Positions 1-28,574 of a DNA stretch of 64,000 nucleotides are shown here, piece after piece. Within the stretch, counting starts at the first letter, position 1; each line of letters opens with the position of its first letter. Source of the stretch: Amphiscolops sp. MND2022 (Eukaryota). The stretch is from the NCBI GenBank assembly GCA_964187785.1, contig OZ076409.1:39620001-39684000 (forward strand), read 5' to 3'. The position numbers were made by a program, and so were the translations under genes. The notes beneath the pieces are model-generated. The model ran no database searches and was not told the origin of the DNA. It saw nothing but the letters and a program-made list of their open reading frames with translations.

Positions 1-1407
1 GTGCCTCAGCTTAGATGCCAACGACTTCGTCTACATGGACGAAAGATTAGTAATCCCCAAGACGCTAAGACCAATCATCATGAGATCACTGCACTACGGG
101 CACCCGGGGCGAGATGCCATGTTGGCAACAATTTCTAATGTGTGGTGGCCAAGACTGCATCGAGAGGTAGTCACAATCGCCAGAGAATGCCCCCAATGCA
201 AAGAATCTGGTTAGAACATAAAAACAATACTTAGCCAAAAACAAATAGGGAAATTGCCTGAAAGTAAAGAATGTAATCAAGAGATAGCAATTGACTTCGC
301 CGGCCCATTCCAAAACGCCATAAACGCAAAAAAGTACCTTTTAGTATCAGTATATCACTTTTCGGGATTGCCGGAAGCAAAGTTTTTAAGAAAGCCAACC
401 ACAGAAAAGGTAATAGAAGTTTTAAAGAACTATATTACAAGGCACGGAATTCCACAGACCATAAGAACGGACCCGGCGACAAATTTCCGAAGTAGGCGAT
501 TTAGGAATTTTGCCAAAAACGACTAATCCGCCACATAGAATGTCCAGAAAGGGACCACCGCGGAAATGGCAAAATAGAGAGACTAAATTCGTTTCGGAAT
601 ATTTCAGATCAACCACAGCCAGCCATCCAACTCAGCGACACAGACTTCGAGTCGGGACAGGACTCAACTATCATGGTACGCGAGAAGACAAGAGGCACAA
701 AGCTTGAGAGGGCCTACAAGAAAAAGAAGGGGGTACTGCTCGAGCAATCGAATCATACCATAAACTTCCTGCCAGCAGGCAGAAATCAGCCAACGATCAT
801 CTCCAAACGCGACGTGGCGAACAACACCAACCAACCATGCTGCTCCCGCGAAGCAACAAAGCAACTAGCGTCACAAAATACAGGCACAGCATTGGCGGGA
901 AACAAGCCATTCACAAGGGAGGACGACAGCAGCTCAGAAGTGGCAACAAGAGATGACCTGCCAATCACCATGAACTTGCCAGAAACATCACGCCCGCTAA
1001 CTCCAACAACAGAACAGCGACGAAAAAAGAAATCAGCACTAGAACAACTAAAGCAAAAAGTAAAGAAAACAAAGGAGGGGAAGAAGATGAAAAGAGCAAA
1101 ACAAAATCAAAAACCAGAACAAATCACAGAAATCGGAAGCGAATCAGAAGAAGAGATGTGGCCACAACAAGAAGCCGAACCCAATATCAAAGAAAAAAAG
1201 CAAGACAATGAAGAAGAAGACAACAGAAGCGAGCAAAACCCAGCAACCATGATAGACACTACCAATCAAAACGAAGTACAACAACTGCCGAACCCACCAC
1301 GCCGAGGAAACAGAAACCGGCCCAAAACCGACTTCTTTGGCAACAACATAATGGTTTCACAAATAACCAAAAGCCCGAGAAGAGAAGAAGAAAACGATGA
1401 AAACTAA
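1..1407 (+). mobile_element. 3' part of a degenerate Ty3/Gypsy (Mag-like) pol: integrase zinc finger and core, then a K/E-rich C-terminal tail
   Basis: Translates to LHYGHPG...WWPRLHREV...C..C, IAIDFAGPF, IRTDPAT, GNGKIERL. Stops, frameshifts and a deletion after IERL; ORFs 254-526 and 673-1407. Confidence 0.9.
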
Positions 1408-1543
1408 ACCTACAAACTACTCTGTAAAATCTACAAACTACTCTTAGGAGAAGAAAAATTTTCAGTTTCGTAAATTGGCAATTGTACAATTTATATTATT
1501 ACACGCCTGTACAATAAATACAAATTTGTGTTAAATCGGGGGA

Positions 1544-1717
1544 TGTGAGAGAGGCTAAGCTATACTCTCGAAACTGACCTCATTCAAATAAGAAAAGTGT
1601 CTAGTTGTTGACAAACATAAATGACAAACACGGTACAGCATCTAGACTTAGGACTTAGTAGAAGTCATCGTCAACAGTAACAGATAGATTGCTTGTTTCT
1701 TATTTTTGTCTCATACA
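1544..1717 (+). mobile_element. 3' LTR of the element at 1-1407
   Basis: Polypurine tract cgggggga directly before TGTGAGAG (1544); probable end ...tcatACA (1717). The same PPT/LTR start pattern occurs in the related element at 22243. Confidence 0.65.
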
Positions 1718-2603
1718 GAATTGAAAAATGTGGTAATTTGTGAATCCAATGGTTTCACATTTCGTTTTCTAATTTGCAATTTTTTTTATTTAAAATTTCA
1801 AGAAGGAAAAGAAACTAGAAACTCTGTTGAATGACAACCTTGAAAACAAATAGAATAATGGTGAATAAAAACAGTCAACATATATCAAAGAGTTCATCCT
1901 CTTTAGGGATAGTTCTAATGCCTTTTAGTGAAGCCATAATCGGTAGTGCATGAGGTCGAAATTTGTTTTCGCAAAACTTTGGAGTTTGCGAATTCTCCCT
2001 CAGAAGTTCAACTGTCGAGACACGGGTCTCGCGCGACTCACTCAGAACATCTACATTGTTAATGTAATCGGGGATGGTTGCGTAGGAGTCACCGGGACAT
2101 TTAATGCTGACGCACGTCAGATATTTTTTGGAGATTGTGGCATCTTGGAGGGTTCCGGTTGGTTGTTTCCTGCCCAGAAGCAATCGCAACTTGCTCATGC
2201 AAAACTGTGGATGAATCTGCAAATTAAAAAGAAAATAAGTTGAACAAGTGAAACACTATGAATTTAAAATGAACAGTTTTTCAAGTCAAATTGTAAAAAC
2301 CTCCTGGACGGCCTTTTCATTAACAATTGTTTTAACTGCGTCGAACAAACGAAACTTGAAAGGACAAGCTCTCTGAATTTTTTCTGTTGCAGTGAGAAGA
2401 AGCAATGCCAGCAGCTCGGGAAGATCAGGGAATTTGTCATCCGCGTAAGTCCTCGAATGGTCAAGGATCATCATCTCCCGTATCATAGGAATGTGTCCAA
2501 GGGCCAAAAAATTGGTCCCCACTGCAATTGAGTCACCTGTAACGATTTGATTGAGGAAAGACAGAATTATTTTTTGGTTCCAATCGTGAGTAAAAAAATT
2601 TTT

Positions 2604-3130
2604 TGGTGGAAACCAGGACAAAACAGTCAGATTTGAATGTTGACGTACCCCCTTTGGTAGTTGTTTTCTTACAGTTTAAGATATGTATATGGTTTCCACG
2701 ACACATGTGTAAAGATATGGTCCTACTTTCCACAGTCGCTTTCGTGGCCATCGAACAGTGAATGCTATTTTGGTGGAATCCAAGACAATATGCTCAAAAT
2801 GGTGGAAACCAGGACAATACAGTCAGATTTAAATATTGACGTACTACCCCCTTTGGTAGTTGTTTTCTTACAGTTTAAGATTAGTATGCGGTTTCCACGA
2901 CACATGTATAAAGATATGGTCTTACTTTCTATAGTCGTTTTGGGACCATTCAAGAACGAGCTCATTCGTTGAGTGCTAATGAAAAAATGGCAATTGATCA
3001 AAATCTGCCACATTTTGATGACAAGACAGTTATGAATAAATGCCATGTTTTCAAAAAATGCCATGCAAAATTGATAGGTGTTTTCGTGAGACTAGGACTT
3101 TTGAGACAAATTTTGTGTTTATTACAAGTC
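2604..3130 (+). repeat. 199-bp repeat array plus associated tail, inside the JmjC intron
   Basis: Unit core gacgtactaccccctttggtagttgttttcttacagtttaag recurs at 199-bp spacing (2661, 2860). Confidence 0.95.
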
Positions 3131-3420
3131 AAGGAGAAAAGTATTCGTTGCTATTACATGTCATGATGGTTGGGACACCGGGGACAAAATATGGGCGGCC
3201 TGGTCGCGTTTACAATGTTCATATTCAGCTTCAAATTGTTCTGATTCACGGTTCAATAGCAATAGCTGAACAAAGAGAAATTGTTGATCTCACTTGTCCG
3301 TAATTAGGATTCTAATTAATTGTTAGCTAGCAATGGAATACTGCCTAGCAAAAACTTGCATAACTTCGAAACCAAATTTTACATTGTATTACTTTGTTAA
3401 AGACTCAGAATTGTTAGACA

Positions 3421-3770
3421 TTGAACAGTGAATGCTATTTTGGTGGAATCCAAGACAATATGCTCAAAATGGTGGAAACCAGGACATTACAGTCAGATTT
3501 AAATATTGACGTACTACCCCCTTTGGTAGTTGTTTTCTTACAGTTTAGGATTAGTATGCGGTTTCCTCGACACATGTATAACGTTATGGTCTTACTTTCC
3601 ACAATCGTTTTAGGACCATTCAAGAACGAACTCATTTGTTAAATGCTTATGAAAAATGGCAGTTGACAGAAATCTGTCATACTTCGATGACAAGACAGTA
3701 ATAAATAAATGCAATTTTTAATAAAATGCCTTGCAAAATTGTTTTCAATGTTTTCGTGAGACAAAGACTT
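3421..3770 (+). repeat. 199-bp repeat unit plus tail; 2604-3770 is largely duplicated at 6233-7590
   Basis: The linker 3130-3420 is near-identical to 6960-7251 (identical ORFs 3040-3303 and 6871-7134). Confidence 0.9.
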
Positions 3771-3781
3771 TTTAAAGCCTG

Positions 3782-4220
3782 GGTAGATCGGTTTTTGCCG
3801 TACGATTTTCATATTGAACAAACACCGGGGAGAACTCTGGGAATAGCTGACTATTTGTCAAGGCATCCTTCCTAATGTGAAGGATCAATCATTCAATCTG
3901 AGGAATTATTCAAAGATTGGTTCACCGTAAAGGTAGTAGACAAGTTCACAAACGAATTAAAACGGACGGTATTGGCGAGAAGAAACGGACCAATCAAATC
4001 GCGAGAGAGTGTAAATCGAACGCGGAAAACATGCAAACGAGTATTGACACTGTAGAGTGAAAAAGAAAGTATTAAGTTGTGGCAAAATTATGCATCGTGC
4101 CAATACCGGAAAAAACGCCAAAATTACAAAAATGAATCCAACACTAGAAAGAGATCGTCAGCTAAATTCGTTCAGAATTAGTCAAGTGTACGTAAAAGCG
4201 AATTACGAAAAAGACCAACT
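3782..4220 (+). mobile_element. Gypsy pol fragment (end of RNase H and linker)
   Basis: VDRFLPYDFHIEQTPGRTLGIADYLSRHP...ELFKDWFTV...SQVYVKANYEKD. Confidence 0.85.
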
Positions 4221-6232
4221 GACACTTCTTTCATAACTCAAAGAGACTAAAGAAGACCATAATACCTTTCGTGAGGACAAAATGAAGGTAGTTGGCAGGC
4301 ATAACTAGCATGTCACTGGGTGTAACATTGAGTCGGATGCATCCTTCTTCCAGTTCATTGATGGCACCAAAGAATGTGGGCCTGAAACATCAAACTAAAT
4401 CAAAACTAGTTTTTATGCACTGTTTCTGGAGTTATTGGTGTCCGTTGTTTCGTTGAAAAAAATTAATTTATAAATTTATAATCAACTCTTATAAAATTCA
4501 AAAACTCTTCGTTAGTTTCAATTAAAAACGCTTACGTTTGGTCATTTTCTGCATCTGACCATTTCTCGAAGATTGCCATATTCTTTTTTGTTGGCTTGAC
4601 CAAGAAAAAAATTTTCTCGCCACGAAGAACAGTATAGCAAACAGAAGTTGCTGAAAAGTCTTGGTGCAAGTTGTGTGCGCTGAGTCCTGCGTAATCAGCA
4701 GATAATATGAAGTGGCACATGAATAAGGCTCGAGGCTAGTCTTCCCAATGAGTTTTTCAACCAGGTGACCAATGGAATTGTCTCTCACCATCTTTGGGAC
4801 TGTGTACAGCTTCTTAAACACAAAAACTTAGTTTAAAAAATGAAAATAGTTGAAAAATGAGGTTATTCTTTCATCAAGTTTCCCAACTCACTTTTGGCTT
4901 CATCCTGATATCAATAACATTCAGTGGATACTTCACGTCATCAGGGCCACATGAATTCAAAACATCTACGAACTCCGGTATGGATAGAGATTGCGTCTGA
5001 AACTAGGAAGTATTCATATCGTTTTATTGGAGAGAGGTAATGAATAATTTTTGTGAAATAATAACCATGGTGAAATGTGAAAAAAATAGATAAAACACTA
5101 CATGAATCCAATATACGAGACATTTTGGTTTTTTAAAAGACAGTATTTTTGCGAAAAGATAATGAAAAACTTACAGTGCCGATCTTTGCCGATTTCACAT
5201 CTAGTTGCTGCTCCGGATCAGTCAAATTTGATGCCATCAGGAGTTGCTGGACTTCACTGGGAAAATGCGCACTCCTGTCAACTTTGGGAAGCTGTATACC
5301 AGGACAATGGTTTGCACCACTTTTCCAAAGCAGAGGTATGCCGTGTTGCAACAGAGAGTCTAAATGCACACTTGGATTCTCCTGAGGGCCCTGCCACTCG
5401 TCGAAAGAAAACCCACATTCCAGAGGAATTCTCTCGCAAAATTCAAAGTACCCTGTGGTACCAAAAGGAGATGGGGGATACTCTGAGAAGGTGACATCAA
5501 CAGGCATTGGAGCTAGGGCTACTTGGCAAGATAGTGATCTTGCGACGTGATTCCGGAGTACGTACTGGTACGCGAACAACTTGCCACAACTCAGACAAAT
5601 ATGGGGACTTTTTTGACGACCTTTTGCAGCTGCTGGAAAACAAACATGTGTAAACATTTTGATTTGGATTTTTTGTTAATCTTCCTCCCAAACCCCCCGC
5701 CCGTTCTTTATATCTTTCCAGATCATAAGTATTCGAGCGAAAAACTCAATAATTTCAGTAAGGCTAAATAACTTACGATATTTGTACATGGAGACTTCTA
5801 TGCCGGCATCAATTTTGGCTTTTTGCTTGACACAGTACTTAGCGTTCTTTTGATGACGCATCCGACTTTTCTTATTAGTGAATAACTGTCCACAATTCTC
5901 ACAGGTCAGTTCTTTTTTCTTCCAGTCCTCATAGGGCATTCCTGGGCACTGCTTCTCATGACGCTGGAGGTTGAACAACCGATCAGTGACGTAATCACAG
6001 GTGCCATTGGTACAAGAAAATAGGTTGGTCGAGCTTTTTTTGTACTTCTTGTATGATGGTGCTTCATTCTGCCTTTCAGTATTTGGCAACAACTGCCCGC
6101 ATTTCTCACACGTCACTGCTTGTGACTGCGATGAGCAAGCCTGATCAGACATCTGGAATATAGGTTTAAAAAAGAAAAACATCATTTGCATTGAATTTTG
6201 TTAAAGTCCTCAAAATGGACAATAAACTCACA

Positions 6233-7590
6233 CTGGTGGAAACCTAGACAAAACAGTCAGATTTGAATATTGACGTACTACCCCCTTTGGTAGTTGTTTT
6301 CTTACAGTTTAAGATATGTATGTGGTTTCCACGACACATGTATACTGATACGGTCCTACTTTCCACAGTCGCTTTCGTGGCCATCGAACAGTGAATGCTA
6401 TTTTGGTGGAATCCAAGACAATATGCTCAAAATGGTGGAAACCAGGACATTACAGTCAGATTTAAATATTGACGTACTACCCCCTTTGGTAGTTGTTTTC
6501 TTACAGTTTAAGATATGTATGTGGTTTCCACGACACATGTATACTGATACGGTCCTACTTTCCACAGTCGCTTTCGTGGCCATCGAACAGTGAATGCTAT
6601 TTTGGTGGAATCCAAGACAATATGCTCAAAATGGTGGAAACCAGGACATTACAGTCAGATTTAAATATTGACGTACTACCCCCTTTGGTAGTTGTTTTCT
6701 TACAGTTTAAGATTAGTATGCGGTTTCCACGACACATGTATAAAGATATGGTCTTACTTTCTATAGTCGTTTTGGGACCATTCAAAAACGAGCTCATTCG
6801 TTGAGTGCTAATGAAAAAATGGCAATTGATCAAAATCTGCCACATTTAATGACAAGACAGTTATGAATAAATGCCATGTTTTCAAAAAATGCCATGCAAA
6901 ATTGATAGGTGTTTTCGTGAGACTAGGACTTTTGAGACAAATTTTGTGTTTATTACAAGTCAAGGAGAAAAGTATTCGTTGCTATTACATGTCATGATGG
7001 TTGGGACACCGGGGACAAAATATGGGCGGCCTGGTCGCGTTTACAATGTTCATATTCAGCTTCAAATTGTTCTGATTCACGGTTCAATAGCAATAGCTGA
7101 ACAAAGAGAAATTGTTGATCTCACTTGTCCGTAATTAGGATTCTAATTAATTGTTAGCTAGCAATGGAATACTGCCTAGCAAAAACTTGCATAACTTCGA
7201 AACCAAATTTTACATTGTATTACTTTGTTAAAGACTCAGAATTGTTAGACATTGAACAGTGAATGCTATTTTGGTGGAATCCAAGACAATATGCTCAAAA
7301 TGGTGGAAACCAGGACATTACAGTCAGATTTAAATATTGACGTACTACCCCCTTTGGTAGTTGTTTTCTTACAGTTTAAGATTAGTATGCGGTTTCCACG
7401 ACACATGTATAACGTTATGGTCTTACTTTCCACAATCGTTTTAGGACCATTCAAGAACTAGCTCATTCGTGAAATGCTTTCGAAAATTGGCAGTTGATAA
7501 AAATCTGCCATATTTTGACAAAAAGACAATTATGAACAAATGTCATTTTACATCAAAATGCCTTGCCAACTTGTTTTCAATGTTTTGTTT
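6233..7590 (+). repeat. 199-bp repeat array (about 3 units, linker, 1 more unit) just upstream of the JmjC gene
   Basis: Units at 6294, 6493 and 6692 (period 199); a further unit from 7252. Confidence 0.95.
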
Positions 7591-8860
7591 TAATTAGACT
7601 AGGACATCGTTAGCCAAATTTACTGGCTCTAGCTCTACTTTTTTGTCCACGAGTATTTGTGCAATATATAATTCATCTTCCTCTCTCTGCGCGTTTCTCG
7701 GTCTACGGTAACTCAAACAATTTAGAGCTTTGCATCGAAAATGACTGTATATGAATAAAATTAATTGATCATCTAAATACAAAAATATATATGAAAAGAA
7801 CAAATCAACAAGTTTCTTCTGTTGAAGCAGTAGTGAAAGAGTGGCTCGAGAGGGCTTATAATTTCTTCTTTGGATTTCTGCTGTACTGGATTTGATTTCA
7901 GGGGTACTGGTTCTGTTTAGAGCTGAGCCCTAAAAGGCTTGACGTGAAGATTATTGTTCGGTCTCCAGATGTCATCGAAAATGATCTCTTCATCATACGT
8001 GTTTTTTTGGGTAACTTCGTACTTTGTTTTCCCGTTGGGGTAGAACACTTGGCAGTAGTAGCAAAACCCAACTTTGCGTGGGGCATGCGACTTTCCAGGT
8101 AATTTGTTAACTCCGTTTTCGCCATTTTGTGAGATGACTTTATCCATTGAAGCAAGAAGCGAAAATGAGTACAGATGTATGAATTGTGGAGAGAGACTGG
8201 GTGCAGAAGAGGGTTTGCGGAGAAACCAAGTACAGATGACCTGGTAAGAGAGGCTGATTGATGGCAGAACAAGAGACTGAATGATGACAAAAAAGAATAG
8301 AGACTGGATCGTTTGAGTTTGTTTGGCAAGAATGAAAGAAATGTAATTGAAAGCCAAATTTTTTGGTTAACCCTTATTGGTTGAAATACTGCTTTGATGT
8401 CAGAATAAAGTTAGATTAAAGTGTTTGGTTCTAATTATTTAATTGTAAATGGCTTTTACCATGCCATCTTTTTCAAAGGTAATTGTATTTCGTCATTAAT
8501 TGCGCAAAATGCCCCCTCCCCAAGCGACCGCAGGGGAAAATAAGACACAAGGTTTAATTCTGACTGTATTGTAGTACGTCAAAATTTAAAATCCATTATG
8601 CCGTCCTATGGTCAAAGAAAAATTTCTCAATGTTTGAATGGCGTTTTCGAATAACATGGCGTTTAATATTATCTAGCTTGTCATCAAAATCTGGCAGATT
8701 TTGATAAACTGCCATTTTCGTAGTATCACATTCAACGAATGAGCTAAAACGACTGTGGAAAGTAAGACCCTAACTTTATACATGTGTCGTGGAAACCGCA
8801 TACATATCCTAAACTTTGAGAAAACAACTACCAAAGGTGGTAGTACGTCAATATTTAAAC
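7252..8860. repeat. Cassette copy 1: 199-bp-family arms in inverted orientation around a ~1-kb core with a decayed small ORF
   Basis: Plus-strand arm 7252-7590 and minus-strand arm ~8560-8860. Core ORF MDKVISQNGENG...FCYYCQV. Copies at 13866-15587 and 18882-20811. Confidence 0.9.
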
Positions 8861-9757: not shown

Positions 9758-9758
9758 A

Positions 9759-10060
9759 TTGGAGGAAACATTCAAAAGGAAAACGGCTCTGCCAATTAGA
9801 GAATCGGACCATACTGTGACAATTCTGCCAAGCCGAGGAAGCCCTGTGGTATTATCCCAAAGAGATATAGCAATCGAGAGAAAAGAGGCGAATAACCCGG
9901 GACCGTCAAAAAGGCAGGGAGTATCGGAAGATGAAAATAGCAGCAGTGAAGAAGAAAAGCCAAAACAAGCCAACTTGCCAAATAGTCAAGAAATGCTAAA
10001 TGAGGCCGAATTGCCAATTGAGGAAGAGGTACTAGAAGGGTCAGAGACGTCAAGTGAGGT
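9759..10060 (+). mobile_element. Gypsy integrase C-terminal tail fragment
   Basis: LEETFKRK...ESDHTVTIL...LSQRDIA is homologous to LERAYKKK...QSNHTINFL...ISKRDVA at 700-820. Confidence 0.75.
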
Positions 10061-10120
10061 TGTTAAAGACAGCTGAGAGGCAGTACTCAAGAAGAAAAGA
10101 AGGGGAGATAACAATGTATT

Positions 10121-15587: not shown

Positions 15588-15667
15588 AATTTTGATATAC
15601 CGTATTAGTGTCATGGAAATTTTGCCTAATTTTGAATGCATCTTTAAAATCAGGGGAGATGTTTAAA

Positions 15668-15982: not shown

Positions 15983-17376
15983 GTTTAAATGTTGGTTCAC
16001 CATAGACGCAGAAGAATTCACAAAAGGGAAAGAACAAACGTTATTGACGAAACGAAACGGACTAATCAAAACGTGTGACAGCTACACAGCACAAAGCGTA
16101 AAGTACATGTACACGTATGTGACGAGAGTGTAAACATTTTGACAATATTAATCAGCGTTCAAAGTTTGACCAAAACGGCAAATTGAATTCTTACGCCAAT
16201 CCGATAGAAATGGATAACTTCAATGAAAGTGACCGAGATTTGAGTTCTTCACGAATTAGCAAAGTATACGTCAGAGCTAATTACGACAAGGACAGAACCT
16301 TACAAAAAATTATCGGACTACTGAAGGAACGCAATGCAACACAAATTTCAAGACTACCCCCTCCATGGCGAGAAAAGTTCAATTCGCTCAGTTTAGACAA
16401 TAATGGGTTATTATACATGGAGGAAAGATTGGTCATTCCAAAAGACATGAGAGATAACATGCTCAGTGCCATACATTTCGGACACGCAGGCAGGGACGCT
16501 ATGCTTTGTGAAGCAGCCGATGTTTGGTGGCCGCGTATCCACCGCGAAATTGTCGAAAAAGCGAAAAATTGCCAGCAATGTAGCCAATCAGGTAAAAATT
16601 TAAAATGTTTACAATCTCAAAATGGGTTTTGGAAATTGACAAATCCGGAAGTACCTAATGCAAAAATCTCACTAGATTTCGCAGGGCTAAAAACAAAAAG
16701 AACAACATACTACCCGTAGTCTCCGTCGATAATAATACTGGATGTCCAGATTCCATGTTCCTACCGGATACAACGGCACACAGGGTAGTCGAATTTCTGA
16801 ATGAGTATATTTCAAAAAACAGAATCCGCGTAGAATTCGAATCGATCCTGGCACTGTGCTCAAAAGTCAGAAATGTAACCAATTTTGTAAGGAGTTTTGC
16901 ATTGAACAAGTAGTGTGCCCGAGACCACCGCGTGAACGGAAAAGTCGAAAGGATGATTAGAAATATAAATGAACCATAACTGGTTGAGAATAGACAAAGA
17001 TACAGTTTTAACAAGGGATAATTTAGGACTGTCCAGGATTTTATTTGCACTAAGAAACCAATAAGGCGCAGATGGGAAATCGGCCTTTGAACGGCATTTG
17101 AACAGAAAACCTAATACAATAAAGAGAGTTATGTTGAAAAATTCATTTCAGAAGCCGACCCGAAAATTGAATTGAGCCCAGCGGACTTCAGCGAAGAAGT
17201 GGATTCGACCATTCTGGTCAGAGAGCGAGTGCGCGGGTCAAACTTAGAAGGCGCCTGCAAAAAGAAGAAAGGGAAAATTATTGGCGAGGCGAGCCCTTCC
17301 ATCTCAATTTTGCCCAAGAAGGGAACGACAGTGATCTATTCGAAGAGGGATGTGGCCCTACAGAGATCCAAACTGA

Positions 17377-18296
17377 CCAAATCGCCACAATCGGACAAAG
17401 AGCCAAAACAAGCAAAAGTGCCAAGTCAAAAGAGGGCAACAATTGTACCAGATCCGTCAAGTAGCGAAGAAATGGGAGCACACGAATGCAGTTGGTGGTT
17501 GGATAACAACGAGCAAAGCGGAAAAGCCGAAGAGCAAGCGGAACATGCACATCGAGAGAACACCGCTATACTTGAGTCTGCGCATGAAGAAACAAAGACA
17601 TCCCCACTAAAGGCGAATGTGGAATGGGAGATCAGCCACAAGAACCCGACAACCCAAAAATCTGCACGCAAGACCAAGAAGCCCAAATCGCCACAATCGG
17701 ACACAAAGCCAAAACAAGCAAAAGTGCCAGGTCAAAAGAGGGCAACGATTGTACCAGATCCGTCAAGTAGCGAAGAAATGGGAGCACCCGGATGCAGTTG
17801 GTGGTTGGATAACAACGAGCAAAGCGGAAAAGCCGAAAAGCAAGCGGAACATGCACATCGAGAGAACACCGCTATACTTGAGTCTGCGCATGAAGAAACA
17901 AACACATCCCCACTAAAGGCGAATGTGGAATGGGAGATCAGCCACAAGAACCCGACAACCCAAAAATCTGCACGCAAGACCAAGAAGCCCAAATCGCCAC
18001 AATCGGACACAAAGCCAAAACAAGCAAAAGTGCCAGGTCAAAAGAGGGCAACGATTGTACCAGATCCGTCAAGTAGCGAAGAAATGGGAGCACCCGGATG
18101 CAGTTGGTGGTTGGATAACAACGAGCAAAGCCGAAAAGCCGAAAAGCAAGCGGAACATGCACATCGAGAGAACACCGCTATACTTGAGTCTGCGCATGAA
18201 GAAACAAAGACATCCCCACTAAAGGCGAATGTGGAATGGGAGATCAGCCACAAGAACCCGACAACCCGTAAATCTGCACGCAAAACCAAGAAGCCC
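17377..18296 (+). repeat. In-frame 306-bp (102-aa) tandem triplication in the Gypsy tail ORF
   Basis: KSPQSD.KPKQAKVP...KSARKTKKP occurs three times in ORF 17172-18359; period 306. Confidence 0.95.
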
Positions 18297-18881
18297 GACT
18301 GGTTGGGCCACAATTTCATGAAGACAATTGATCGAGATGATGTTGCCGAAGAAAAATAGACGAAGAAACCTAAAAACCTGAAACAAACACATTGTTAACG
18401 TACATGTAAACTACAGTGTTATTCTACATACATGTGCAATTTTAGTTGAAGTTATCCTTATGTAGATTGTGTATTACTTTATTGGTCCACTGGTAACCAA
18501 TCAAATCATTTTGCAATGAATGGTTTTGATGTAAATCTAAATTGAGTCTTTTTTCAGTATTCATTACGACTGTTTTTATTTCAAATAAGAACTACGCTGT
18601 CAGTGACTTGAAAATTTGACGCATGTTGAAAATAACATGGGAAAATGTCGGACACGACATTCACCTATGAACAAAGTTCACAGAGATTGGTTGACACTTG
18701 ACAAGACCCACGGCAAGAACGTGGCCTCCATCGGGTCTCAAAAAGGCTAATTTCGCAGTCTCACATCTCCAAAACAACTCGAAATGGTTCAATTTGGTAG
18801 AAACAAATGTTTCTTGACTTTTTGCAAAAAAACAATGGTTTTTGTTTGAAATTTCAACCATCATTGTTGAATGGTCAACTG

Positions 18882-20811
18882 TCAATACAGTCAGATTTAA
18901 TTTGTGACGTACTACCACCCCCTTTGGTAGTTGTTTTCGTACAGTTTAAGATATGTATATGGTTTCCACGACACATGTATAATGATATGGTCCTACTTTC
19001 CACAGTCGCTTTCGTGGCCATCGAACAGTGAATGCTATTTTGGTGGAATCCAGGACAATATGCTCAAGTTGGTGGAAACCAGGACAATACAGTCAGATTT
19101 AAATATTGACGTACTACCCCCTTTGGTAGTTGTTTTCTCACAGTTTAAGATTAGTATGCGGTTTCCACGACACATGTATAAAGTTAGGGTCTTACTTTCC
19201 ACAGTCGTTTTAGCTCATTCGTTGAATGTGATACTACGAAAATGGCAGTTTATCAAAATCTGCCAGATTTTGATGACAAGCTAGATAATATTAAACGCCA
19301 TGTTATTCGAAAACGCCATTCAAACATTGAGAAATTTTTCCTTGACCATAGGACGGCATTATAGATTTTAAATTTTGACGTACTACAATACAGTCAGATT
19401 TAAACCTTGTGTCTTATTTTCCCCTGCGGTCGCTTGGGGAGGGGGCATTTTGCGCAATTAATGACGAAATACAATTACCTTTGAAAAAGACGGCATGGTA
19501 AAAGCCATTTACAATTAAATAATCAGAACCAAACACTTTAATCTAACTTTATTCTGACATCAAAGCAGTATTTCAACCAATAAGGGTTAACCAAAAAGTT
19601 TGGCTTTCAATTACATTTCTTTCATTCTTGCCAAACAAACTCAAACGATCCAGTCTCTATTCTTTTTTGTCATCATTCAGTCTCTTGTTCTGCCATCAAT
19701 CAGCCTCTCTTACCAGGTCACCTGTACTTGGTTTCTCCGCAAACCCTCTTCTGCACCCAGTCTCTCTCCACAATTCATACATCTGTACTCATTTTCGCTT
19801 CTTGCTTCAATGGATAAAGTCATCTCACAAAATGGCGAAAACGGAGTTAACAAATTACCTGGAAAGTCGCATGCCCCACGCAAAGTTGGGTTTTGCTACT
19901 ACTGCCAAGTGTTCTACCCCAACGGGAAAACAAAGTACGAAGTTACCCAAAAAAACACGTACGATGAAGAGATCATTTTCGATGACATCTGGAGACCGAA
20001 CAATAATCTTCACGTCAAGCCTTTTAGGGCTCAGCTATAGTATAGAGTCTAAACACAACCAGTACCCCTGAAATCAAATCCAGTACAGCAGAAATCCAAA
20101 GAAGAAATTATAAGCCCTCTCGAGCCACTCTTTCACTACTGCTTCAACAGAAGAAACTTGTTGATTTGTTCTTTTCATATATATTTTTGTATTTAGATGA
20201 TCAATTAATTTTATTCATATACAGTCATTTTCGATGCAAAGCTCTAAATTGTTTGAGTTACCGTAGACCGAGAAACGCGCAGAGAGAGGAAGATGAATTA
20301 TATATTGCACAAATACTCGTGGACAAAAAAGGAGAGCTAGAGCCAGTAAATTTGGCTAACGATGTCCTAGTCTAATTAAAACAAAACATTGAAAACAAGT
20401 TGGCAAGGCAATTTGATGTAAAATGGCATTTGTTCATAATTGTCTTTTTGTCAAAATATGGCAGATTTTCATCAACTGCCATTTTTCGAAAGCATTTCAC
20501 GAATGAGCTAGTTCTTGAATGGTACTAAAACGACTGTGGAAAGTAGCACCATATCGTTATACATGTGTCGTGGAAACCGCATACTAATCTTAAACTGTAA
20601 GAAAACAACTACCAAAGGGGGTAGTACGTCAATATTTAAATCTGACTGTATTGTCCTGGTTTCCACCAATTTGAGCATATTGTCCTGGATTCCACCAAAA
20701 TAGCATTCACTGTTCGATGGCCACGAAAGCGACTGTGGAAAGTAGGACCATATCATTATACATGTGTCGTGGAAACCATATACATATCTTAAACTGTAAG
20801 AAAACAACTAC
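18882..20811. repeat. Cassette copy 3, inverted relative to copies 1 and 2
   Basis: Core ORFs are now on the plus strand (19600-20040, 20166-20375); 12-bp insertion near 20036. Confidence 0.9.
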
Positions 20812-21110
20812 CTGAATGTCGATGCTGAATGCGTTAAATTTTTCCCTCCAGGGAGGGGGAAGACGGGAAACTACAGTCGCGTTTCGCTCTTTAACAAGCT
20901 TTATTACCTTTTGGATAGTTTTATCCGCTTCGTAATTGGCCTGGACATAGAACCGGCTAATTCTAGAATTTGCCAAATCGTTTCGACACGCCATTAGTTT
21001 GCTTTCTGGTAATTTGGCAACTTGTTCACTTTGACTCAAATTGTGCACAGGCTCGTGAACGGTTAATACTTTCGTATTCAATCTTTTCTCGCTTTCTTGC
21101 ATTCTGATTA
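20812..21110 (-). mobile_element. Gypsy pol linker fragment
   Basis: SRISRFYVQANYEADKTIQKVIKLVKERNATVVSRLPPPWREKFN. Confidence 0.85.
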
Positions 21111-21403
21111 GCTTAGCCCTATTTAACGATCACTTGGAAGAATCAGTATTTTCATTTAAGTGCAAATAACATTGGGACCAAAATTATTCATGATTAATTT
21201 CACCTTTGAAATACTTTTCGTTGCTATGAGAAGTCAGAGGGACGGAATATGTCCATGATATCTTTCGTCCGACAAAAAGCCTGTGTTATAGCTGGCAATG
21301 TTCAGATGAAAACAATGTAGTGCAAGCAATACTGTATTCTAGATTAGACCATGTGGTTAATGGTCTTCGAGATTATTCTTTTGATACAGTTTGTATTTAT
21401 TAA

Positions 21404-22195
21404 TAGAGTTGTAACCGGATTGTATTTTACCGGATTCCGGATACCTGATAATCCGGGCATTTTTCTACCGGATATTAACCGGATACCGGATAACAGGATA
21501 AATTAAATGCAACTTCATTTATTTGTATTATTTGTATTTACGACTGATTTTTTTCAGAAGTAAGATATGGATAAACGCAAGGGAAACATCTGGAATTTTT
21601 TTCGGCGGAGCCCGACCACAAGGCGAAGTGCTTGCAGCCTGGATGTGGACAGAACGTTAAGTCTCTATTCAGCTGACTCCAACATTCCAAAATTAACAAG
21701 TAATCAATGGGTACTTCTTGAGAAACTTATCAAAGTTCTTAAACCCTGTGAACAATTTACGAAGGATGTGTCTGGTGATTGTGCATCCATTTCTTTAGTG
21801 ATCCCGGGCTATAACCTGTTAAGAAACAAGAAAGCCGATTCCCTCTGCTGAAAGCTACTGCAAAAAAATATCTATCAGCGCCACCTGGATCGGTCAGAAG
21901 TGAACGGGTATTCTCCACATGCAGCAACGTTCTATCGCAGAGAAGAAATCGTCTGAAGCCAGAAATGTCTGAGAAATTGGTTTTTTTACATGATAATTTG
22001 GGTTTTGTAAAAAACATAAAATAATTGATTGTATACTTTTGTTCTTTAAAAGACAAATTTATCAATAAAAAATGTTTTTTTTTACTATCCGGTATCCGGC
22101 TATTTTTTTCTTACCGGATACCGGATAACCGGATACCGGATATTCTAAAATTACCCGGATATTCAAACCGGATACCGGATTCCGGTACAACCTTA
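21404..22195 (+). mobile_element. Non-autonomous hAT deletion derivative inserted in the 3' LTR, 8-bp TSD tttattaa
   Basis: TSD at 21396-21403 and 22196-22203; TIRs tagagttgtaaccgga / tccggtacaacctta; ccggata subrepeats; hAT C-terminus AKKYLSAPPGSVRSERVFS..RRNRLKPE..EKLVFL. The empty site is visible in the other LTR (~26250). Confidence 0.92.
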
Positions 22196-22954
22196 TTTAT
22201 TAACAACTTGCAAATTGACATTTTAAATTAACTGCCCTCTCACATCCCTCCGTTTAATGTTAGTGTACAACTTGTAATAAATAATATAAATACTGTACAA
22301 ACTCAAATGTAATTTGCCATGTAATACTTGACAATTAAACACAAATAGGTATTTGAGAATACCGGTAATAATATACGTTTCTGCTTTCGCAGTTTTTTTT
22401 TGTTTTTCCAGTTTCTTGATTTCGTTAGCCCTTGTGCTAAAGATTTCTGGTTTATTCTTTTTGTTCATCGCCTTGGGGCCCGTCGATTTTGGTCACCATG
22501 ACGTTATGGCCAAAGAAGTCTGTTTTCTGGCGGTTTCGTCCTCCTCGTCTACGTTCCTGTACTGTGTCTCGCCATGGTGGCATGTTTGATCGGTCTATTT
22601 CGTTTTTTGTATCGTTCAGGTTGTTTTCTCCTGTATTCTCTTGTTTGATGTGATCTTGTTCTTCTTGTCTCATCTCCTCTTCTTCTTCATCAGATTCAAT
22701 TAAATCGATTACTGGGGGGCTCTCGTTTTCTGGGATCTTTGGGAGTGGTTTGCTTTTCGGTTTCCTTTGTTTTCGCCTGGCTTTTTCCCTCAGCTGTTTT
22801 AAAGCTGACTTCTTTTTCTTTATCTCCACTTTTGTGGTGGTTAGGGGTCTGTTATCTTCGGCGTGTTTTATTGCTATTTCGTCTCCACTCTTCTCCGCTT
22901 GAGCCGCGGTATTGTCCAATGAGCGTGAAGACTCGCTGTGATTGGTTAGTTCTA

Positions 22955-23052
22955 GAGTTGCCTGTTCGCCGGTGTTTGCCAATTCTTCTTGACTTGCCTG
23001 TTTGCCGGTGTTTGCAAATTCTTCTTGACTTGCCAGTTCGCCAGTGTTTGCC
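22955..23052. repeat. 36-bp coding tandem repeat, about 3 copies
   Basis: ttgcctgttcgccggtgtttgccaattcttcttgac variants encoding ANTGxxASQEE. Confidence 0.8.
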
Positions 23053-23059
23053 GCGTCTA

Positions 23060-23642
23060 CAGTAGCGTTCTAAAATATTGTAACTCCAATGCTTAGAATT
23101 GCGAATTTCAAATCCAAATTTCTTGAAAACTGTCACAAACACAAAAAAGTGTCAGCTAGGAAAGTTTCTTAGAATTTTATCTAGTTTACAAAAATGTTTG
23201 TTTGAAATTTTTGTGACAAAAAATACAAAAGTTAGAAATTGCAAATTTTGACAAAGTTTGATCGAATTTGCACTTTTTCTTGATTTTCACAAAGTTGAAA
23301 AAAGATTTTTGAAAAACTTCCAGTCAATGATTTGCCCCCAATGCTCCTGAGGTTGCTGATATGATTTGATTGAAAAACTTTTTCGATTTCAAATGAAAAC
23401 CATCAATTTTCTAAATGCAATTCTTATAGCCTATTGTAATACATAAACTTCAGTGCTCATAGACACAAAATATAGTGTAGTTTTTCTGATTCGGAAAAAA
23501 ATTGTCGATCAAAACAATTCAGCAGGTTCGGGAGATTATAGAATGTCTCCCAATGAAAAAAAATCCAAAAATATTTATTCTAAGTTACTCAATTTTCGAA
23601 AAAAACTCAAATTTCAATAAAAGTTCACTAAAATTGTGTTAG
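23060..23642. mobile_element. 583-bp AT-rich insertion flanked by TA
   Basis: Removing it plus one TA restores QQV-DAANTG in frame between ORFs 23628-24941 and 22452-22982. The left end CAGTAGCGTTCTAAAATATT is Tc1-like; the right end does not match it. Confidence 0.65.
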
Positions 23643-25189
23643 TACTTGTTGTGCTAGTTGTTCTCGTAGTTGATTTAGATGCCTGTCTGCTTCTCGTGAG
23701 CTGCATGGCTGTTCGTTACCTGGCCCCCATTGTCTGTCTGCCTTAGCGATATCTCTTTTAGATATAATTGTTTCTTGGGATTTTCCTGCTGGCAAGAACG
23801 TGATGGTATGTTGTGATTGGTCGAGAAGTGTTCCTTTTCGCTTCTTGTACGCGCTTTCTAGTTTGGTCCCTCGGACCCGCTCCCTGACGAAAATGGTAGA
23901 GTCTTGCCCAGACTCGAAATCAGATGGCGACAGTTTGACTTCTGATGATTCTGAAATAGGAGATTCACGACTTGTTACCAGTTTTTTGACAGTGTTCGGA
24001 TCTATTCCGACGTATTTTTTGTACGGCGACTTGCCATTTCTCGTTGAATACATGCGCAGAGCAAATAGGATTTCGGATAGACCTGAATGGTCCCTTTCCA
24101 GTATGATTTGTTTGTTCGTGCGTAGTCTTTCGTTTATAATGAAGCAGTTTGCGCAAAATGTTTTGAATCGTTTACTGCAAAAAATAGTCGCCGGGTCGGT
24201 CCTAATGCTTTTTGGAATGCCATGTCTCGCTATGTACTTCTTAAGGAACTCAATAACTTTTTCTGTCGTAGGCTTTCTTAAAAATTTAGCCTCTGGCCAC
24301 CCCGACAAGTGATCCACTGAAACTAACAGATATTGTTTTGCTGCGGGTGCGTTTTTAAAAGGACCGGCAAAATCTATTGCGATTTCTTGATTTATCTCAC
24401 TTACCTTTGGTAGTTTTCCGAATTGTTTTTGCGTTAGTAATGGTTTAATGTTCTTACCTGCATTTTGGCATTGTGGACATGATTTTGCTAGATTGACGAC
24501 CTCCCGGTGTAGTCGTGGCCACCACACGTTTGAAACGGTCGCTAACATCGTGTCCCTGCCGGGATGTCCGTAATGTAAAGAACGAATGATAATTTGGCGT
24601 AACGCTTTGGGAATAACTAAACGCTCGTCCATGTATATAAAATCGTTTGGATCGAGGCTCAAACAGCGAAACTTTTCCCTCCAAGGGGTGGGAAGGCGAT
24701 TTATTTTGGTGCTATCGGGCTTCTTGAGGAGAGCCACGATTTTTTGAATGAATTCATCGGTCTCGTATTCTGCGGCGAATGTAAAATTGCCCAACGTTTT
24801 TAGGACTTCGATCTGATTGACACTATAGCACATAGGTACTTTTAGTGGCGGTTGGTTTGCTGCGTGGCGGAATTCCTCGCTCATCATTTCGCTCGATTGT
24901 TCGGCTTCGCTGACTTTTGACGTGTTAAATGATTGTGGCAATTTCGTTGAGTGTTTGTTTATTTATGGCAATTCGTGTTTGTTCGTTTGGCAATTGTCGC
25001 TTGCTTTTGTCGTTTCGCTCTCACTTGATGAATTGTTGCTGCCTTGCCATTGGCTGTCGTTCGCTGCGTGCGGTGCTACTGGCTGTTCTCTCGCGTTTTG
25101 TGTTTGTGACGTATCTGTAACAAATTTATTTTTGGTTATTTCGTTTACAGTAAACCAATTATTCCACCTTTCTTCTGCTTTAATTTTGT

Positions 25190-25502
25190 GGATTACGTAC
25201 CAAATAGCATAAGTGCAAATAACATAAAAACAAAATTAGTGTCAAATAACATAAAAAAGAAATTAGTTTCAAATAACATAAAAATAAAACCGAATACCCG
25301 GTTAAACAATCGAACTCAGAAAATTTTATCTGTAATTTCCACACTTTTTTCAGTGAATCTTTTGATTTGTGAATGCTTTTGACCACTAAAACTTTCTCGT
25401 AAACATATTTGTTTTTATGTTTAGTGAAACCCATTTCATTTTTGTTATTTGAAACTAATTTTGTTTTATGTTATTAGCTCTTATGCTATTTGGGAATTCA
25501 CC
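25190..25502 (+). mobile_element. ~313-bp MITE, copy 2 (GG...CC ends, TSD attttgt)
   Basis: attttgt at 25183-25189 and 25503-25509; homologous to 15668-15982. Confidence 0.8.
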
Positions 25503-26479
25503 ATTTTGTGTATGTTACTTGCGTTTTCGGATGGGTGGCGTGATAAGTAATCTGCGATACCCATTGTTCGACCTGGTGCATGAACTACAGTGAATTGAAA
25601 CGGTAGTAAGCGGTCTACCCACCGCGTTAATCTTGACGAATAAGTTCTATTAGCTCGATTATCGCGTAGGATAGTTGTCAACGCCTTATGATCTGAAACT
25701 ACCTCGAATTCGGTGCCGTATACAAAATTTCTAAAATTATTGGTCGGATTCCAGCTGCTGATACTTTGTATCCCAATTATTCAGTCTGGATACTTTCAGC
25801 ATCCACTGCTTTTTGAAGTTGGAGTGGTACTCGTCTACCTTTCTGTTGAGTGATCTTCGCTCCTACTTTAAATTCGATCTTTATACTGTGGCCGGCAATT
25901 TTTCCTTTACGTGAAAAAATGTTGGGAAACTTTTGCTGAATGCGCTTTAAGTCTGGCGACAATTCAACTTTATTTTCAACTTTACTTTGCCACTACAAAG
26001 ATGTCCCACCATTTTTCCCATTCTAGTTTAGGGGGGGGGCACTGTGCTGATCCCAGTATGGTGGCAATCCCGCCAATGCTGACGGACCGCTGGTTGCTGC
26101 CCTTCCGTTGGAGTCCATAATATCTCGCAGCGCCATGTTGTAGCTGGCAATGTTCAGATGAAAACAATGTAGTGCAAGCAATACTGTATTCTAGATTAGA
26201 CCATGTGGTTAATGGTCTTCGAGATTATTCTTTTGATACAGTTTGTATTTATTAACAACTAGCAAATTGACATTTTAAATTAACTGCTCTTTTTGATTTG
26301 GAGTTCGGTTCGAGGTGCCCTCTCACAGCCTGCCTCTGAAAACTCTAACCAATCGAAACGAATTATTTTATCAAAATTTACCATATTTTAATGTCAGGCC
26401 GAATTTAACTGATTGTCAGAATGTTCAAAAACGGCATTCAATTGAGCAATATTTCCATGACAATAATAGGGTATATTAG

Positions 26480-26935
26480 ATTTTAAATATCGACGTACTA
26501 CCTACCCCCTTTGGTAGTTGTTTTCTTACAGTTTAAGATATGTATATGGTTTCCACGACACATGTATAAAGATATGGTCTTACTTTCCACAGTCGCTTTC
26601 GTGGCCATCGAACAGTGAATGCTATTTTGGTGGAAACCAGGACAAAAGTCAGATTTGAATATTGACGTACTACCTACCCCCTTTGGTAGTTGTTTTCTTA
26701 CAGTTTAAGATATGTATATGGTTTCCACGACACATGTATAAAGATATGGTCTTACTTTCCACAATTGTTTTAGGACCATTCAAAAACAAGCTCATTCGTT
26801 GAATGCTAATAAAAAACTGGCAGTTGATAAACATATGCCATATTTTGATGACAAGACAGTTATAAATAAATGCCACATTTTTAAAATAATGCCATGTAAA
26901 ATTGTTTTCAATCTTTTCGTGTTTTGACGTACTAC
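26480..26935 (+). repeat. 199-bp-family array, 173-bp deletion variant
   Basis: Same core; the spacing between units is 173 bp. Confidence 0.9.
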
Positions 26936-27662
26936 TGATGGAGCAATACTTGTTGGAAGATAGCAGAACTTAGAAACTATACAGGAAAGTGTAAGGCAAC
27001 AGCAACTGAATATCTGAACTTTATCGATGTCTAAAAATGTTGGCAGGTGCTAGTAATTAAAGTTTTCACACATATTCGTTTTGTCTAACACTAAGATTAA
27101 CTTTCAGTGTCAATCTATCACACTCTCCATTTTTTGGACAAAACTTGTTGGGAAACTAATTTCTCATCAATTTAAGTTCACTTATGTTTCAAATGTTATC
27201 GGTATCACAGGTACTCATTTCAAGTTACATGACTTCTCAAAGTGTTCAGGATTTTTTAATGTTTTTCAGTTTCAAGCTCTCTTGGGCTCTCATTCGTTTT
27301 GTTCTACGCCCGCTTTTCCACCATCATCGACATTCATTACGACGTCGATCCCATTTCTAGTGATTTGAATGGTTGATCACCTTTTTGCTTTCTCGCCGTC
27401 TTTGACTGTTGTCGCTCACTCTGTTTACTTTCCACTCTAAGTACATGTACCGAGTACAGCGCACGCGACAATTTCATCAATTTCGTCATTTCCAACGGCG
27501 TTGTTTCTTCTGAAATAGCATTAATTCAAGTAATGGTATTTACCGTAAGCCAATCGTTCCAAGATTTTTCCGCCTTCACTGTGTTTCCTTTTATTTCACT
27601 TGGCCCAAAAAGAAACCACTCATGAGTATCATACCAGCAAATAATTCTAATTCGTTAATTGA

Positions 27663-28319
27663 GTTTTTCGCCTCAAAATCCGTTTAAAAAATCTTGACGC
27701 AAATGACACTGGTTTCCATTCTTGGTTATATTGCTGTTGCAGCGTCGCTTATGATTCTAATTTTCTAATTCGTTTAAAATGTGTCGCAGCGCCATGTTGG
27801 AGCAATACTTGTTGAGTAAAATTGCAAAATTGCGTATTATATTACACAAATATTCGTATTTTCAAGTTTAGTACCAGTTTTGAACAAACTGCCAGATCAT
27901 CACAATCTGCCATTATTTGATGACTTGCTTCATTTTTGGTACCAGTCACGAGTATCTTTATTCGTACTTCTTGGATTTTTTGTGTCAATCCGTTTTTCGC
28001 TTCAAAATCCGTTTAAAAAATCTTGACGCAAATGACACTGGTTTCCATTCTTGGTTATATTGCTGTTGCAGCGTCGCTTATGATTCTAATTTTCTAATTC
28101 GTTTAAAATGTGTCGCAGCGCCATGTTGGAGCAATACTTGTTGAGTAAAATTGCAAAATTGCGTATTATATTACACAAATATTCGTATTTTCAAGTTTAG
28201 TACCAGTTTTGAACAAACTGCCAGATCATCACAATCTGCCATTATTTGATGACTTGCTTCATTTTTGGTACCAGTCACGAGTATCTTTATTCGTACTTCT
28301 TGGATTTTTTGTGTCAATC
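27663..28319. repeat. 329-bp tandem duplication containing an LTR end and PBS (minus strand)
   Basis: Period 329; each unit reads ...tgctccaaCA TGGCGCTGCGAC on the minus strand. Confidence 0.85.
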
Positions 28320-28419
28320 AAAACAATTTCCTTTGATATAAAATTGAATTAATTTAAAATGATTATTCAAAATCAGCGGACCAATCAGAGAGCAGCGGCA
28401 AAAGTGTCATTATAGCAGC

Positions 28420-28574
28420 AGTGTTGGCGTGGAATCCAGGACAAGCACTGTCGTGGAATCCAAGAAACGCTTAACATCAAAGAGAAATTTTGTCCTGGAT
28501 TCCACGACTTTTCTCAATTTTCGTGTCCCGGATTCCACGAAAATCAGCGAAAAGCTTGCCTGTGCACTGTAATG
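28420..28574. mobile_element. Right terminus of a CACTA/CMC-like element
   Basis: Ends gcttgcctgtgcactgtaatg, identical to the right TIR of 47025-47329; gtggaatccaggac subterminal motifs in both orientations. Confidence 0.8.

What the first reader, a model, noticed from the sequence alone, without database searches (positions are those of the whole stretch)
1..28574. The left half may be one giant CACTA-like transposon (>28 kb) inserted in an LTR and carrying the demethylase
Seen: an unpaired CACTA-type TIR ends at 28574, exactly where the big Gypsy 3' LTR is cut (...ctgtaatg|atgggctac, versus intact gacatatgggctac at 42654). No partner TIR is found to the left in the window. The same TIR bounds a MITE with a 2-bp TSD at 47025-47329, and its subterminal motif is scattered through the 199-bp arrays from 2.6 to 26.9 kb. 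Inference: the JmjC gene, the cassettes and the nested retroelements are the interior of a single element whose left end lies upstream of the window.
Basis: inference. Interest (0 to 1): 0.78.

Follow-up and report, generated by a model that had tools for sequence, protein, structure and literature searches.

The report
Transposon family carrying a histone demethylase
A histone-demethylase-like gene that animals normally have once occurs here in dozens of close copies, among repeats that share the end motif of a cut-and-paste transposon, so it likely rides in that transposon and would help it escape silencing.

Summary
An unpaired CATTA-type terminal repeat ends at 28574, flush against a cut Gypsy 3' LTR. 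The same end bounds a 305-bp MITE with a TC/TC duplication. Its subterminal motif lies in the 199-bp arrays (20 sites left of 28574, none in 28575-47024).

New here: the JmjC gene is a six- or seven-exon, zinc-finger plus KDM7/PHF8-like gene with one 1-base break. Its exons are listed on 44 other contigs, and one exon product is identical on 10. Eleven of 27 contigs with the array-flanked cassette also carry it (0.3-4.9 expected). One other copy has the array inside the same intron. So gene, arrays and cassette travel together and share the terminal repeat's motif.

Not shown: the partner end, the target duplication, any transposase, and a direct end-to-JmjC link in another copy. About half of the 28.6 kb is nested Gypsy debris, so 'giant' is partly later inflation.

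Best reading (0.6): a damaged copy of a large CMC-type element carrying its own demethylase; an anti-silencing role is inferred, not tested.

The parts
28554..28574 (-). Unpaired terminal inverted repeat (CATTA...), last base flush with the cut LTR
   Evidence: junction without microhomology
28164..28553 (-). Subterminal region: four motif copies (28429, 28453 on +; 28491, 28524 on -); only 28488-28574 is shared with the MITE; 28208-28253 resembles the tail of the array blocks
   Evidence: E 0.0017; pieces of contigs from other runs lie on 28164-28357 and 28473-28575
28575..29310 (-). 3' LTR of the host Gypsy element, cut at the terminal repeat
   Evidence: 97.4% to 42659-43395, polypurine tract adjacent
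42659..43395 (-). Matching part of the intact 5' LTR; it continues left of 42659, exact end not fixed (one candidate near 42492)
47025..47329 (+). 305-bp MITE with the same terminal repeats, TC/TC target duplication and 4 motif copies
1875..6152 (-). Zinc-finger plus KDM7/PHF8-like JmjC gene. Exons 6152-5777, 5632-5175, 5002-4892, 4812-4536, 4381-4266, 2536-2286, and a probable seventh exon 2216-1875. Five GT-AG introns; one base short in exon 4 just before the HxD motif
   Evidence: zinc-finger hits below Pfam cut-offs; exon 7 inferred from a weak donor only
2603..4225 (+). Insert in intron 5: array blocks (2604-3754 is a 96% copy of 6433-7586) and a Gypsy scrap (3775-4225)
   Evidence: array at this intron also in protein P0112 from another contig
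6218..7620 (+). 199-bp array blocks directly upstream of the JmjC start
7250..8859 (.). Cassette copy 1: about 950-bp core between inverted array arms; short ORF 8147-7920 of no known family
13861..15639 (.). Cassette copy 2 with array arms
18881..20813 (.). Cassette copy 3, inverted, with array arms
26367..26921 (+). Array block nearest the terminus
21284..26327 (-). Nested, internally deleted Gypsy element with an LTR pair and a 5-bp target duplication
21404..22195 (+). Small hAT element with an 8-bp duplication inside that LTR; the only transposase match in the left half, unrelated to the CATTA end
   Evidence: (PF05699, E 2e-15)
1..1700 (+). Gypsy 3' fragment and LTR abutting the 3' end of the JmjC gene
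   Evidence: 71% to the integrase region at 24148-24659; polypurine tract read from sequence
9770..13860 (+). Gypsy gag scrap, integrase ORF and LTR
16000..18360 (+). Gypsy integrase fragment with three 306-bp repeats
26932..27814 (-). Probable LTR-retroelement remnant (primer-site-like motif near 27790), overlapping the 329-bp tandem duplication 27663-28319
   Evidence: read from sequence; inference

Best explanation
The left half is likely one damaged copy of a large cut-and-paste transposon of the CMC (CACTA-like) type whose right end sits at 28574 inside a Gypsy LTR and whose fixed cargo likely includes the multi-copy zinc-finger JmjC gene, which is predicted to remove silencing histone marks from the element. 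Shown: the end, the sharp cut, the 2-bp duplication of the family's MITE, the shared motif, the near-intact gene, its many close copies and its co-occurrence with the cassette. Inferred: (1) a transposase made elsewhere binds the motif in the ends and moved the unit into the LTR, leaving an AT duplication and the partner end upstream of the window; (2) the moving unit was smaller than 28 kb and grew by nested Gypsy and hAT insertions and cassette duplication; (3) intact copies make a protein whose zinc fingers would bring a KDM7/PHF8-type demethylase to the motif-rich arrays. KDM7/PHF8 act on H3K9me1/2, H3K27me2 and H4K20me1 (recalled, not from a call). This copy is one base short before the metal-binding motif and would depend on sister copies.
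For: End and junction. CA..TG ends with 2-5 bp duplications mark the CMCT clade (PMC12730594, passages). Motif in the array unit, 0 of 3000 shuffles. All array-family hits lie in 2603-28280, none beyond 28574, with one at 28208-28253. The terminus has its own interior beyond the 88 bp shared with the MITE; pieces of contigs from runs X2, X3 and X4 lie on 28164-28357 and 28473-28575, and one piece in X3/X4 ends at 28575 (X3 and X4 may be one data set). JmjC identity: best solved matches PHF8 and KDM7A (E 7.5e-11 and 7e-10; profile E 8e-14). Copy number: 44 member sequences in 5 clusters for the exon-2 query (the largest cluster mixes exon-1 and exon-2 ORFs), 29 and 29 members for exons 1 and 6, one exon-6 product identical on 10 contigs. 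Three annelids have at most one kdm7 gene (PMC12153100, passage). Linkage: 11 of 27 cassette contigs are among 44 JmjC contigs, three only 45-55 kb long; 0.3-4.9 expected, P at most 0.003. One such contig has three cassette ORFs plus a JmjC ORF, as here. P0112 reads from the 199-bp unit into exon 6 on another contig. Between two subfamilies exon 1 differs at 11 of 125 residues, the translated intron at 6 of 25 (Fisher p 0.04).
Against: The partner end, the duplication and the rest of the LTR were not seen. No CMC transposase among 40 ORFs scanned, 21 of them from the left half. No record links the terminal repeat itself to JmjC in another copy. 16 of 27 cassette contigs have no listed JmjC ORF (lists are cut at 15 per cluster). 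The co-occurrence test assumes random placement; clustering in one heterochromatic domain would also give overlap, and haplotype or assembly duplicates could inflate copy counts. Most Gypsy pieces and all three cassettes lack target duplications, so deletions have reshuffled the region. P0099 and P0103 lack the array at the intron junction. The zinc-finger hits are below Pfam's cut-offs. The selection signal is one marginal test on protein ORFs. No expression or activity data.
Confidence: 0.6

Rival explanations
1. Same family, several elements. The 28574 end belongs to a medium-sized element whose other end is lost; its transposase deleted the flanking DNA up to a point in the LTR (adjacent deletion). 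The JmjC-array unit and the cassettes are sibling non-autonomous elements that piled up nearby.
For: Adjacent deletion gives the same flush junction (established behaviour of cut-and-paste elements, recalled). The cassettes have their own inverted arms and occur on many contigs with no listed JmjC. The array unit carries the first 9 bases of the terminal repeat in 4 copies and a one-base variant in 7 more, which could be old ends. A retro remnant separates the terminus from the nearest array.
Against: No second end with more than 10 matching bases lies in 1-28574. None of the 9-base matches has the AT flank or a partner duplication. Three-cassette plus JmjC layout recurs on another contig.
Confidence: 0.22
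2. The JmjC gene and arrays spread by another route, a Helitron/Helentron-type rolling-circle element or segmental duplication in a repeat-rich domain. The terminal repeat at 28574 is a neighbour whose motif seeded the arrays long ago.
For: Arrays, inverted arms and missing target duplications fit rolling-circle elements (recalled). Domain clustering would explain shared contigs. Tandem arrays can be captured by CACTA elements rather than made by them (PMC8978399, passage).
Against: No Rep or helicase match among the 40 ORFs. The unit has two 14-of-15 matches to the motif in paired spacing like the terminus. Array-tail sequence lies inside the subterminal region.
Confidence: 0.12
3. 28420-28574 is a truncated MITE beside an ordinary deletion, and the left half is unrelated repeat debris around a resident gene.
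For: The first 88 bp are 95% identical to the MITE's left end. The partner end was not seen.
Against: Inward of 28488 the sequence is not MITE but holds two more motifs and array-tail sequence. The junction falls exactly on the terminal base. The gene is not a single resident gene.
Confidence: 0.03

Closest known systems
CMCT-clade elements with TET/JBP cargo, especially PlavakaB (Kojima 2025, PMC12730594; passages read)
   Same: CA..TG ends and a 2-bp duplication (PlavakaB: CATCA..TGATG, 2 or 3 bp; here CATTA..TAATG, 2 bp); a 2-oxoglutarate dioxygenase as cargo, read as anti-silencing
   Different: Those are fungal, carry a DNA-modifying TET/JBP and have an identified transposase. Here the host appears to be an animal, the cargo is a histone JmjC with zinc fingers, and no transposase is known. 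The paper has no occurrence of 'JmjC'.
Arabidopsis VANDAL elements and VANC proteins (Hosaka 2017, PMC5735166; abstract and outline read)
   Same: Element-encoded protein beside tandem repeats in the element's non-coding DNA; the working model proposed here
   Different: VANC removes DNA methylation; VANDALs are Mutator-like and VANC is not a JmjC enzyme (both recalled). Binding and de-silencing are shown there and untested here.
Long CACTA/EnSpm elements with cargo (16-20 kb in Chondrus, PMC6431247; 16.5 kb with a 171-bp array in Chenopodium, PMC8978399; passages read)
   Same: Subterminal direct and inverted motifs, internal tandem arrays, extra genes
   Different: Those have 3-bp duplications (plants), their own transposase and gene fragments; here a whole intron-bearing chromatin gene, and a span of at least 26.7 kb from the terminus to the gene's 3' end
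KDM7A/PHF8/PHF2 histone demethylases
   Same: JmjC core with HxD and the conserved lysine
   Different: No PHD finger found; C2H2-like fingers instead (weak hits); dozens of copies rather than one; exon 6 and 7 products match no solved chain or atlas cluster

Membership tests
CMC/CMCT (EnSpm/CACTA, Mirage, Chapaev, Plavaka) | 5'-CA..TG-3' termini | tested here: met
   CATTA...TAATG on the MITE and at 28574; criterion from PMC12730594
CMC/CMCT (EnSpm/CACTA, Mirage, Chapaev, Plavaka) | 2-5 bp target duplication | tested here: met
   TC/TC at the MITE; one site only, and not testable for the large element
CMC/CMCT (EnSpm/CACTA, Mirage, Chapaev, Plavaka) | Subterminal direct and inverted motifs | tested here: met
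   Four motifs in both orientations within 150 bp of 28574
CMC/CMCT (EnSpm/CACTA, Mirage, Chapaev, Plavaka) | DDE transposase with C(2)C and H(3-4)H motifs | tested here: inconclusive
   None among 40 ORFs; the element runs off the window and no genome is held
Plant-type CACTA in the strict sense | CACTA/G end and 3-bp duplication | tested here: not met
   End is CATTA, duplication 2 bp
One complete transposon copy | Paired ends with matching duplication, flanks joining into the empty site | not testable with these tools
   No partner in the window; upstream DNA not available
KDM7/PHF8 demethylases | JmjC core with iron ligands H-x-D...H and the 2-oxoglutarate lysine | tested here: met
   HxD and lysine align to PHF8. 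The distal His in exon 5 is placed by recall and a weak cupin match (E 1.5). In this copy the HxD lies just behind the 1-base break
KDM7/PHF8 demethylases | N-terminal PHD finger | tested here: not met
   Exons 1-2 give only C2H2-type hits below cut-off
KDM7/PHF8 demethylases | Demethylase activity on histone peptides | not testable with these tools
   Needs an assay
Helitron/Helentron | Rep-helicase gene or rolling-circle ends | tested here: inconclusive
   No Pfam match among 40 ORFs; ends of the JmjC unit not defined

The most novel reading that the evidence does not exclude
A recently active animal CMC-type transposon family encodes its own sequence-targeted histone demethylase: zinc fingers replace the PHD finger of KDM7/PHF8 and read the element's tandem arrays, erasing H3K9/H3K27 methylation on itself and opening a refuge into which Gypsy elements keep inserting. 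This would be an animal, histone-level counterpart of VANC and of the fungal TET-bearing transposons.
Probability: 0.3. Interest if true: 0.88.

Novelty: new variant of a known kind. Interest (0 to 1): 0.7.

Why it matters
Transposon-encoded anti-silencing is described for DNA methylation in plants (VANC) and proposed for fungi (TET/JBP). My six searches of the open-access library listed no animal DNA transposon with a JmjC demethylase; subscription papers and Repbase were not searched. A young, multi-copy, mostly intact zinc-finger JmjC gene tied to a defined repeat motif gives an enzyme, a candidate target and many copies to compare, so the claim that an animal transposon edits its own chromatin can be tested directly. 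It would also offer a natural sequence-directed demethylase.

Tried and rejected
No genome is held, so the upstream test could not be run. The terminal repeat as an exact pattern found 0 matches in metagenome, viral and prokaryote contigs. The JmjC alignment found no confirmed locus in metagenome or viral contigs (68 and 10 pattern hits, 0 confirmed).

Sequencing runs for 4260-6200: 4 rows, each with a share of 0.09-0.10, no RNA holder listed. I did not lay them on the JmjC gene, so these shares are no evidence. Laid on 27992-29400: X1 gave 6 records, none on the terminus; X2, X3 and X4 gave no cover on 28603-29260, so the LTR junction could not be tested; none of the 30 listed pieces (313 not shown) bridges 28357-28473; summed depth is no copy number and was not used. 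One X2 contig joins 28358 back to 28164; at 82% likeness in a metagenome this is only a lead.

The ORF 27057-27365, meant to link the terminus to JmjC contigs, gave 3 weak repetitive hits and turned out to lie in a probable retro remnant. Seven of nine window ORFs looked up exactly were absent from the collection, among them both exon-4 frames and the two near the terminus; this does not tell whether the 1-base break is real or an assembly error. The cassette query was in a frame that is probably not coding; its hits serve only as DNA fingerprints. Atlas searches for the cassette ORF and exon 7 gave no usable hit. Two short contigs (3045 and 2730 bases) and the window's probable own contig were left out of the overlap test. 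The 9-base matches to the terminal repeat inside the arrays were rejected as the partner end. I guessed from recall that the host is an acoel flatworm and searched papers on that guess; no call supports it, and the host stays unidentified. No supplements were read.
Full report
Observation. The 21-base end occurs three times in the window, allowing 5 mismatches: at 28554-28574 facing left, and at both ends of a 305-bp MITE (47025-47329) flanked by TC/TC. The base after 28574 starts a 736-bp match to 42659-43395 (2.58% substitutions), with no shared bases across the junction. The polypurine tract beside 29310 and the minus-strand pol ORFs make this the 3' LTR. The missing LTR part is not in the window. 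The end reads CATTA, so it fits the CA..TG, 2-5 bp duplication rule of the CMCT clade (PMC12730594, passages) but not plant CACTA in the strict sense.

Not a truncated MITE. Only 28488-28574 matches the MITE (95% over 88 bp, left end). Further in there are two more motifs in the opposite orientation and, at 28208-28253, a stretch like the tail of the array blocks (E 0.0017). Contigs of three public runs (133, 101 and 100 records laid; two runs may be one data set) have pieces on 28164-28357 and 28473-28575 with 82-93% of letters alike, and one piece ends at 28575. This shows that the interior exists elsewhere; it does not show it joined to the terminus in one record.

Motif and arrays. The 15-base motif has 20 sites in 1-28574, none in 28575-47024, 4 in the MITE and none beyond. 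One 199-bp unit holds two sites with one mismatch; 0 of 3000 shuffles held one. A profile of ten array blocks hits only between 2603 and 28280. The arrays are thus kin of the terminal repeat family and stop where the terminus stops.

The gene. On the minus strand, 6152 to about 1875, six exons join through five GT-AG introns and stay open until exon 4, which is one base short. The core matches PHF8 and KDM7A best (16 solved sequences listed, 14 of them KDM7 or KDM2 type; profile search). Exons 1-2 give weak C2H2 hits and no PHD finger. Intron 5 is 1,729 bases because it holds a 96% copy of the upstream array block and a Gypsy scrap.

Copies. Exon 2 as query returned 5 clusters with 44 members at 85-97%; 28 were listed, and they map to exons 1 or 2 at 69-99%. 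Exact look-up of exons 1 and 6 gave two more clusters of 29 members, 15 listed each; one exon-6 product is identical on 10 contigs. The window's own two ORFs sit on a 101,413-base contig, probably its source. A more distant set (21 sequences; 20 on 19 long contigs, one on a short contig) is 73-79% identical in the core, lacks intron 3, keeps HxD in all 21, and shares no contig length with the first 26 JmjC or 26 cassette contigs. It may come from a related species. All counts are lower bounds on listing but could be inflated by haplotypes or repeated assemblies.

Linkage. Using contig length as a fingerprint, 44 other contigs carry JmjC ORFs and 27 carry cassette ORFs; 11 are shared, three of them only 45,587-55,002 bases long. 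Random placement predicts 0.31-2.88 (44 loci) or 0.56-4.9 (80 loci) for genomes of 1 Gb to 100 Mb; the largest P is 0.003. Contig 329868 has three cassette ORFs and a JmjC ORF. P0112, from another contig, reads from the 199-bp unit into exon 6, so the array in intron 5 is shared; P0099 and P0103 lack it at that point. Sixteen cassette contigs have no listed JmjC. Clustering in one chromosomal domain would break the null model.

Size and order of events. By my boundaries the left half holds about 14.0 kb of Gypsy-derived DNA, 0.8 kb hAT, 4.5 kb array blocks, 2.9 kb cassette cores and 1.9 kb JmjC exons. The host LTR pair differs by 2.58%, the cassettes by 1.7-1.9%, the intron duplication by 3.4%, the terminus and MITE by 3.5%. 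If rates are equal, the intron duplication predates the arrival in the LTR, while the cassette copies could be later. The unit that moved may have been well under 28 kb.

How it likely works. A CMC-type transposase supplied from elsewhere recognises the ends and the motif and moves the unit; here it landed in a Gypsy LTR. Intact copies would make a roughly 640-residue protein (with the probable exon 7) with zinc fingers in place of the PHD finger. KDM7/PHF8 enzymes remove repressive marks (recalled). The parallel is VANC, whose targets often form tandem repeats (PMC5735166, abstract), and fungal CMCT elements with TET/JBP. Exon 1 differs less than the adjoining intron between subfamilies (11 of 125 against 6 of 25, p 0.04), a weak hint of selection. 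Mobility as one unit, expression, activity and targeting are all inferred.

Rivals. Adjacent deletion by a smaller element with sibling elements nearby (0.22) gives the same junction and cannot be excluded without upstream DNA. Spread by a rolling-circle element or segmental duplication (0.12) explains shared contigs but not the paired motifs as well. A truncated MITE (0.03) does not fit.

Earlier notes of this scan describe JmjC cargo in mushroom Plavaka elements and a broken KDM4-like fragment in a foldback element of another animal. I did not check them; they show the theme recurs and are no support for this locus.

Verdict. The firm new result is a young, multi-copy, near-intact zinc-finger KDM7-like gene physically tied to repeats of a CA..TG transposon family. 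New variant of a known kind; interest 0.7.

Noticed in passing
window 31283-35211 (+): Inside the big Gypsy element, opposite to gag-pol, long ORFs with a CxxC...H zinc-finger-like stretch (32223-32858). No Pfam match above cut-off and no solved match for 34075-35208; looks hAT-transposase-derived by recall only.
   Followed up: partly
window 9368-9760 and 21172-21279: The 202-bp tandem unit resembles both ends of JmjC intron 5 and the end of exon 5 (80-94% to 4235-4288 and 2569-2600): probably scraps of another JmjC copy without the intron insert.
   Followed up: partly
window 2815-20653, array units: The first 9 bases of the terminal repeat (or a one-base variant) recur 11 times in arrays and cassette arms, mostly right after the subterminal motif; the unit may be an amplified old terminus.
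   Followed up: partly
window 8147-7920 (-) and two copies: 76-residue ORF with a CYYC motif in the cassette core; no Pfam or atlas match.
   Followed up: partly
window 50113-52257: Long imperfect inverted repeats (74% over 220 bp, 80% over 79 bp) around a 215-residue ORF of no family: a separate foldback-like element.
   Followed up: no
window 57420-57431 (-): A lone 10-base match to the terminal repeat, with a weaker possible partner near 57146; no clear duplication.
   Followed up: no
window 54523-56739 (-) and 60585-61466 (-): Ordinary host genes: a YTH-domain protein (PF04146, E 4e-48) and an EMI-domain membrane protein (PF07546).
   Followed up: no
proteins P0001-P0021: A second amplified JmjC subfamily lacking intron 3, on 19 long contigs; 13 members have H-R-D rather than H-Q-D.
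   Followed up: partly
window 15672-15986 and 25191-25506: A 90% identical 315-bp piece with 27-bp repeats shared by two Gypsy fragments.
   Followed up: no
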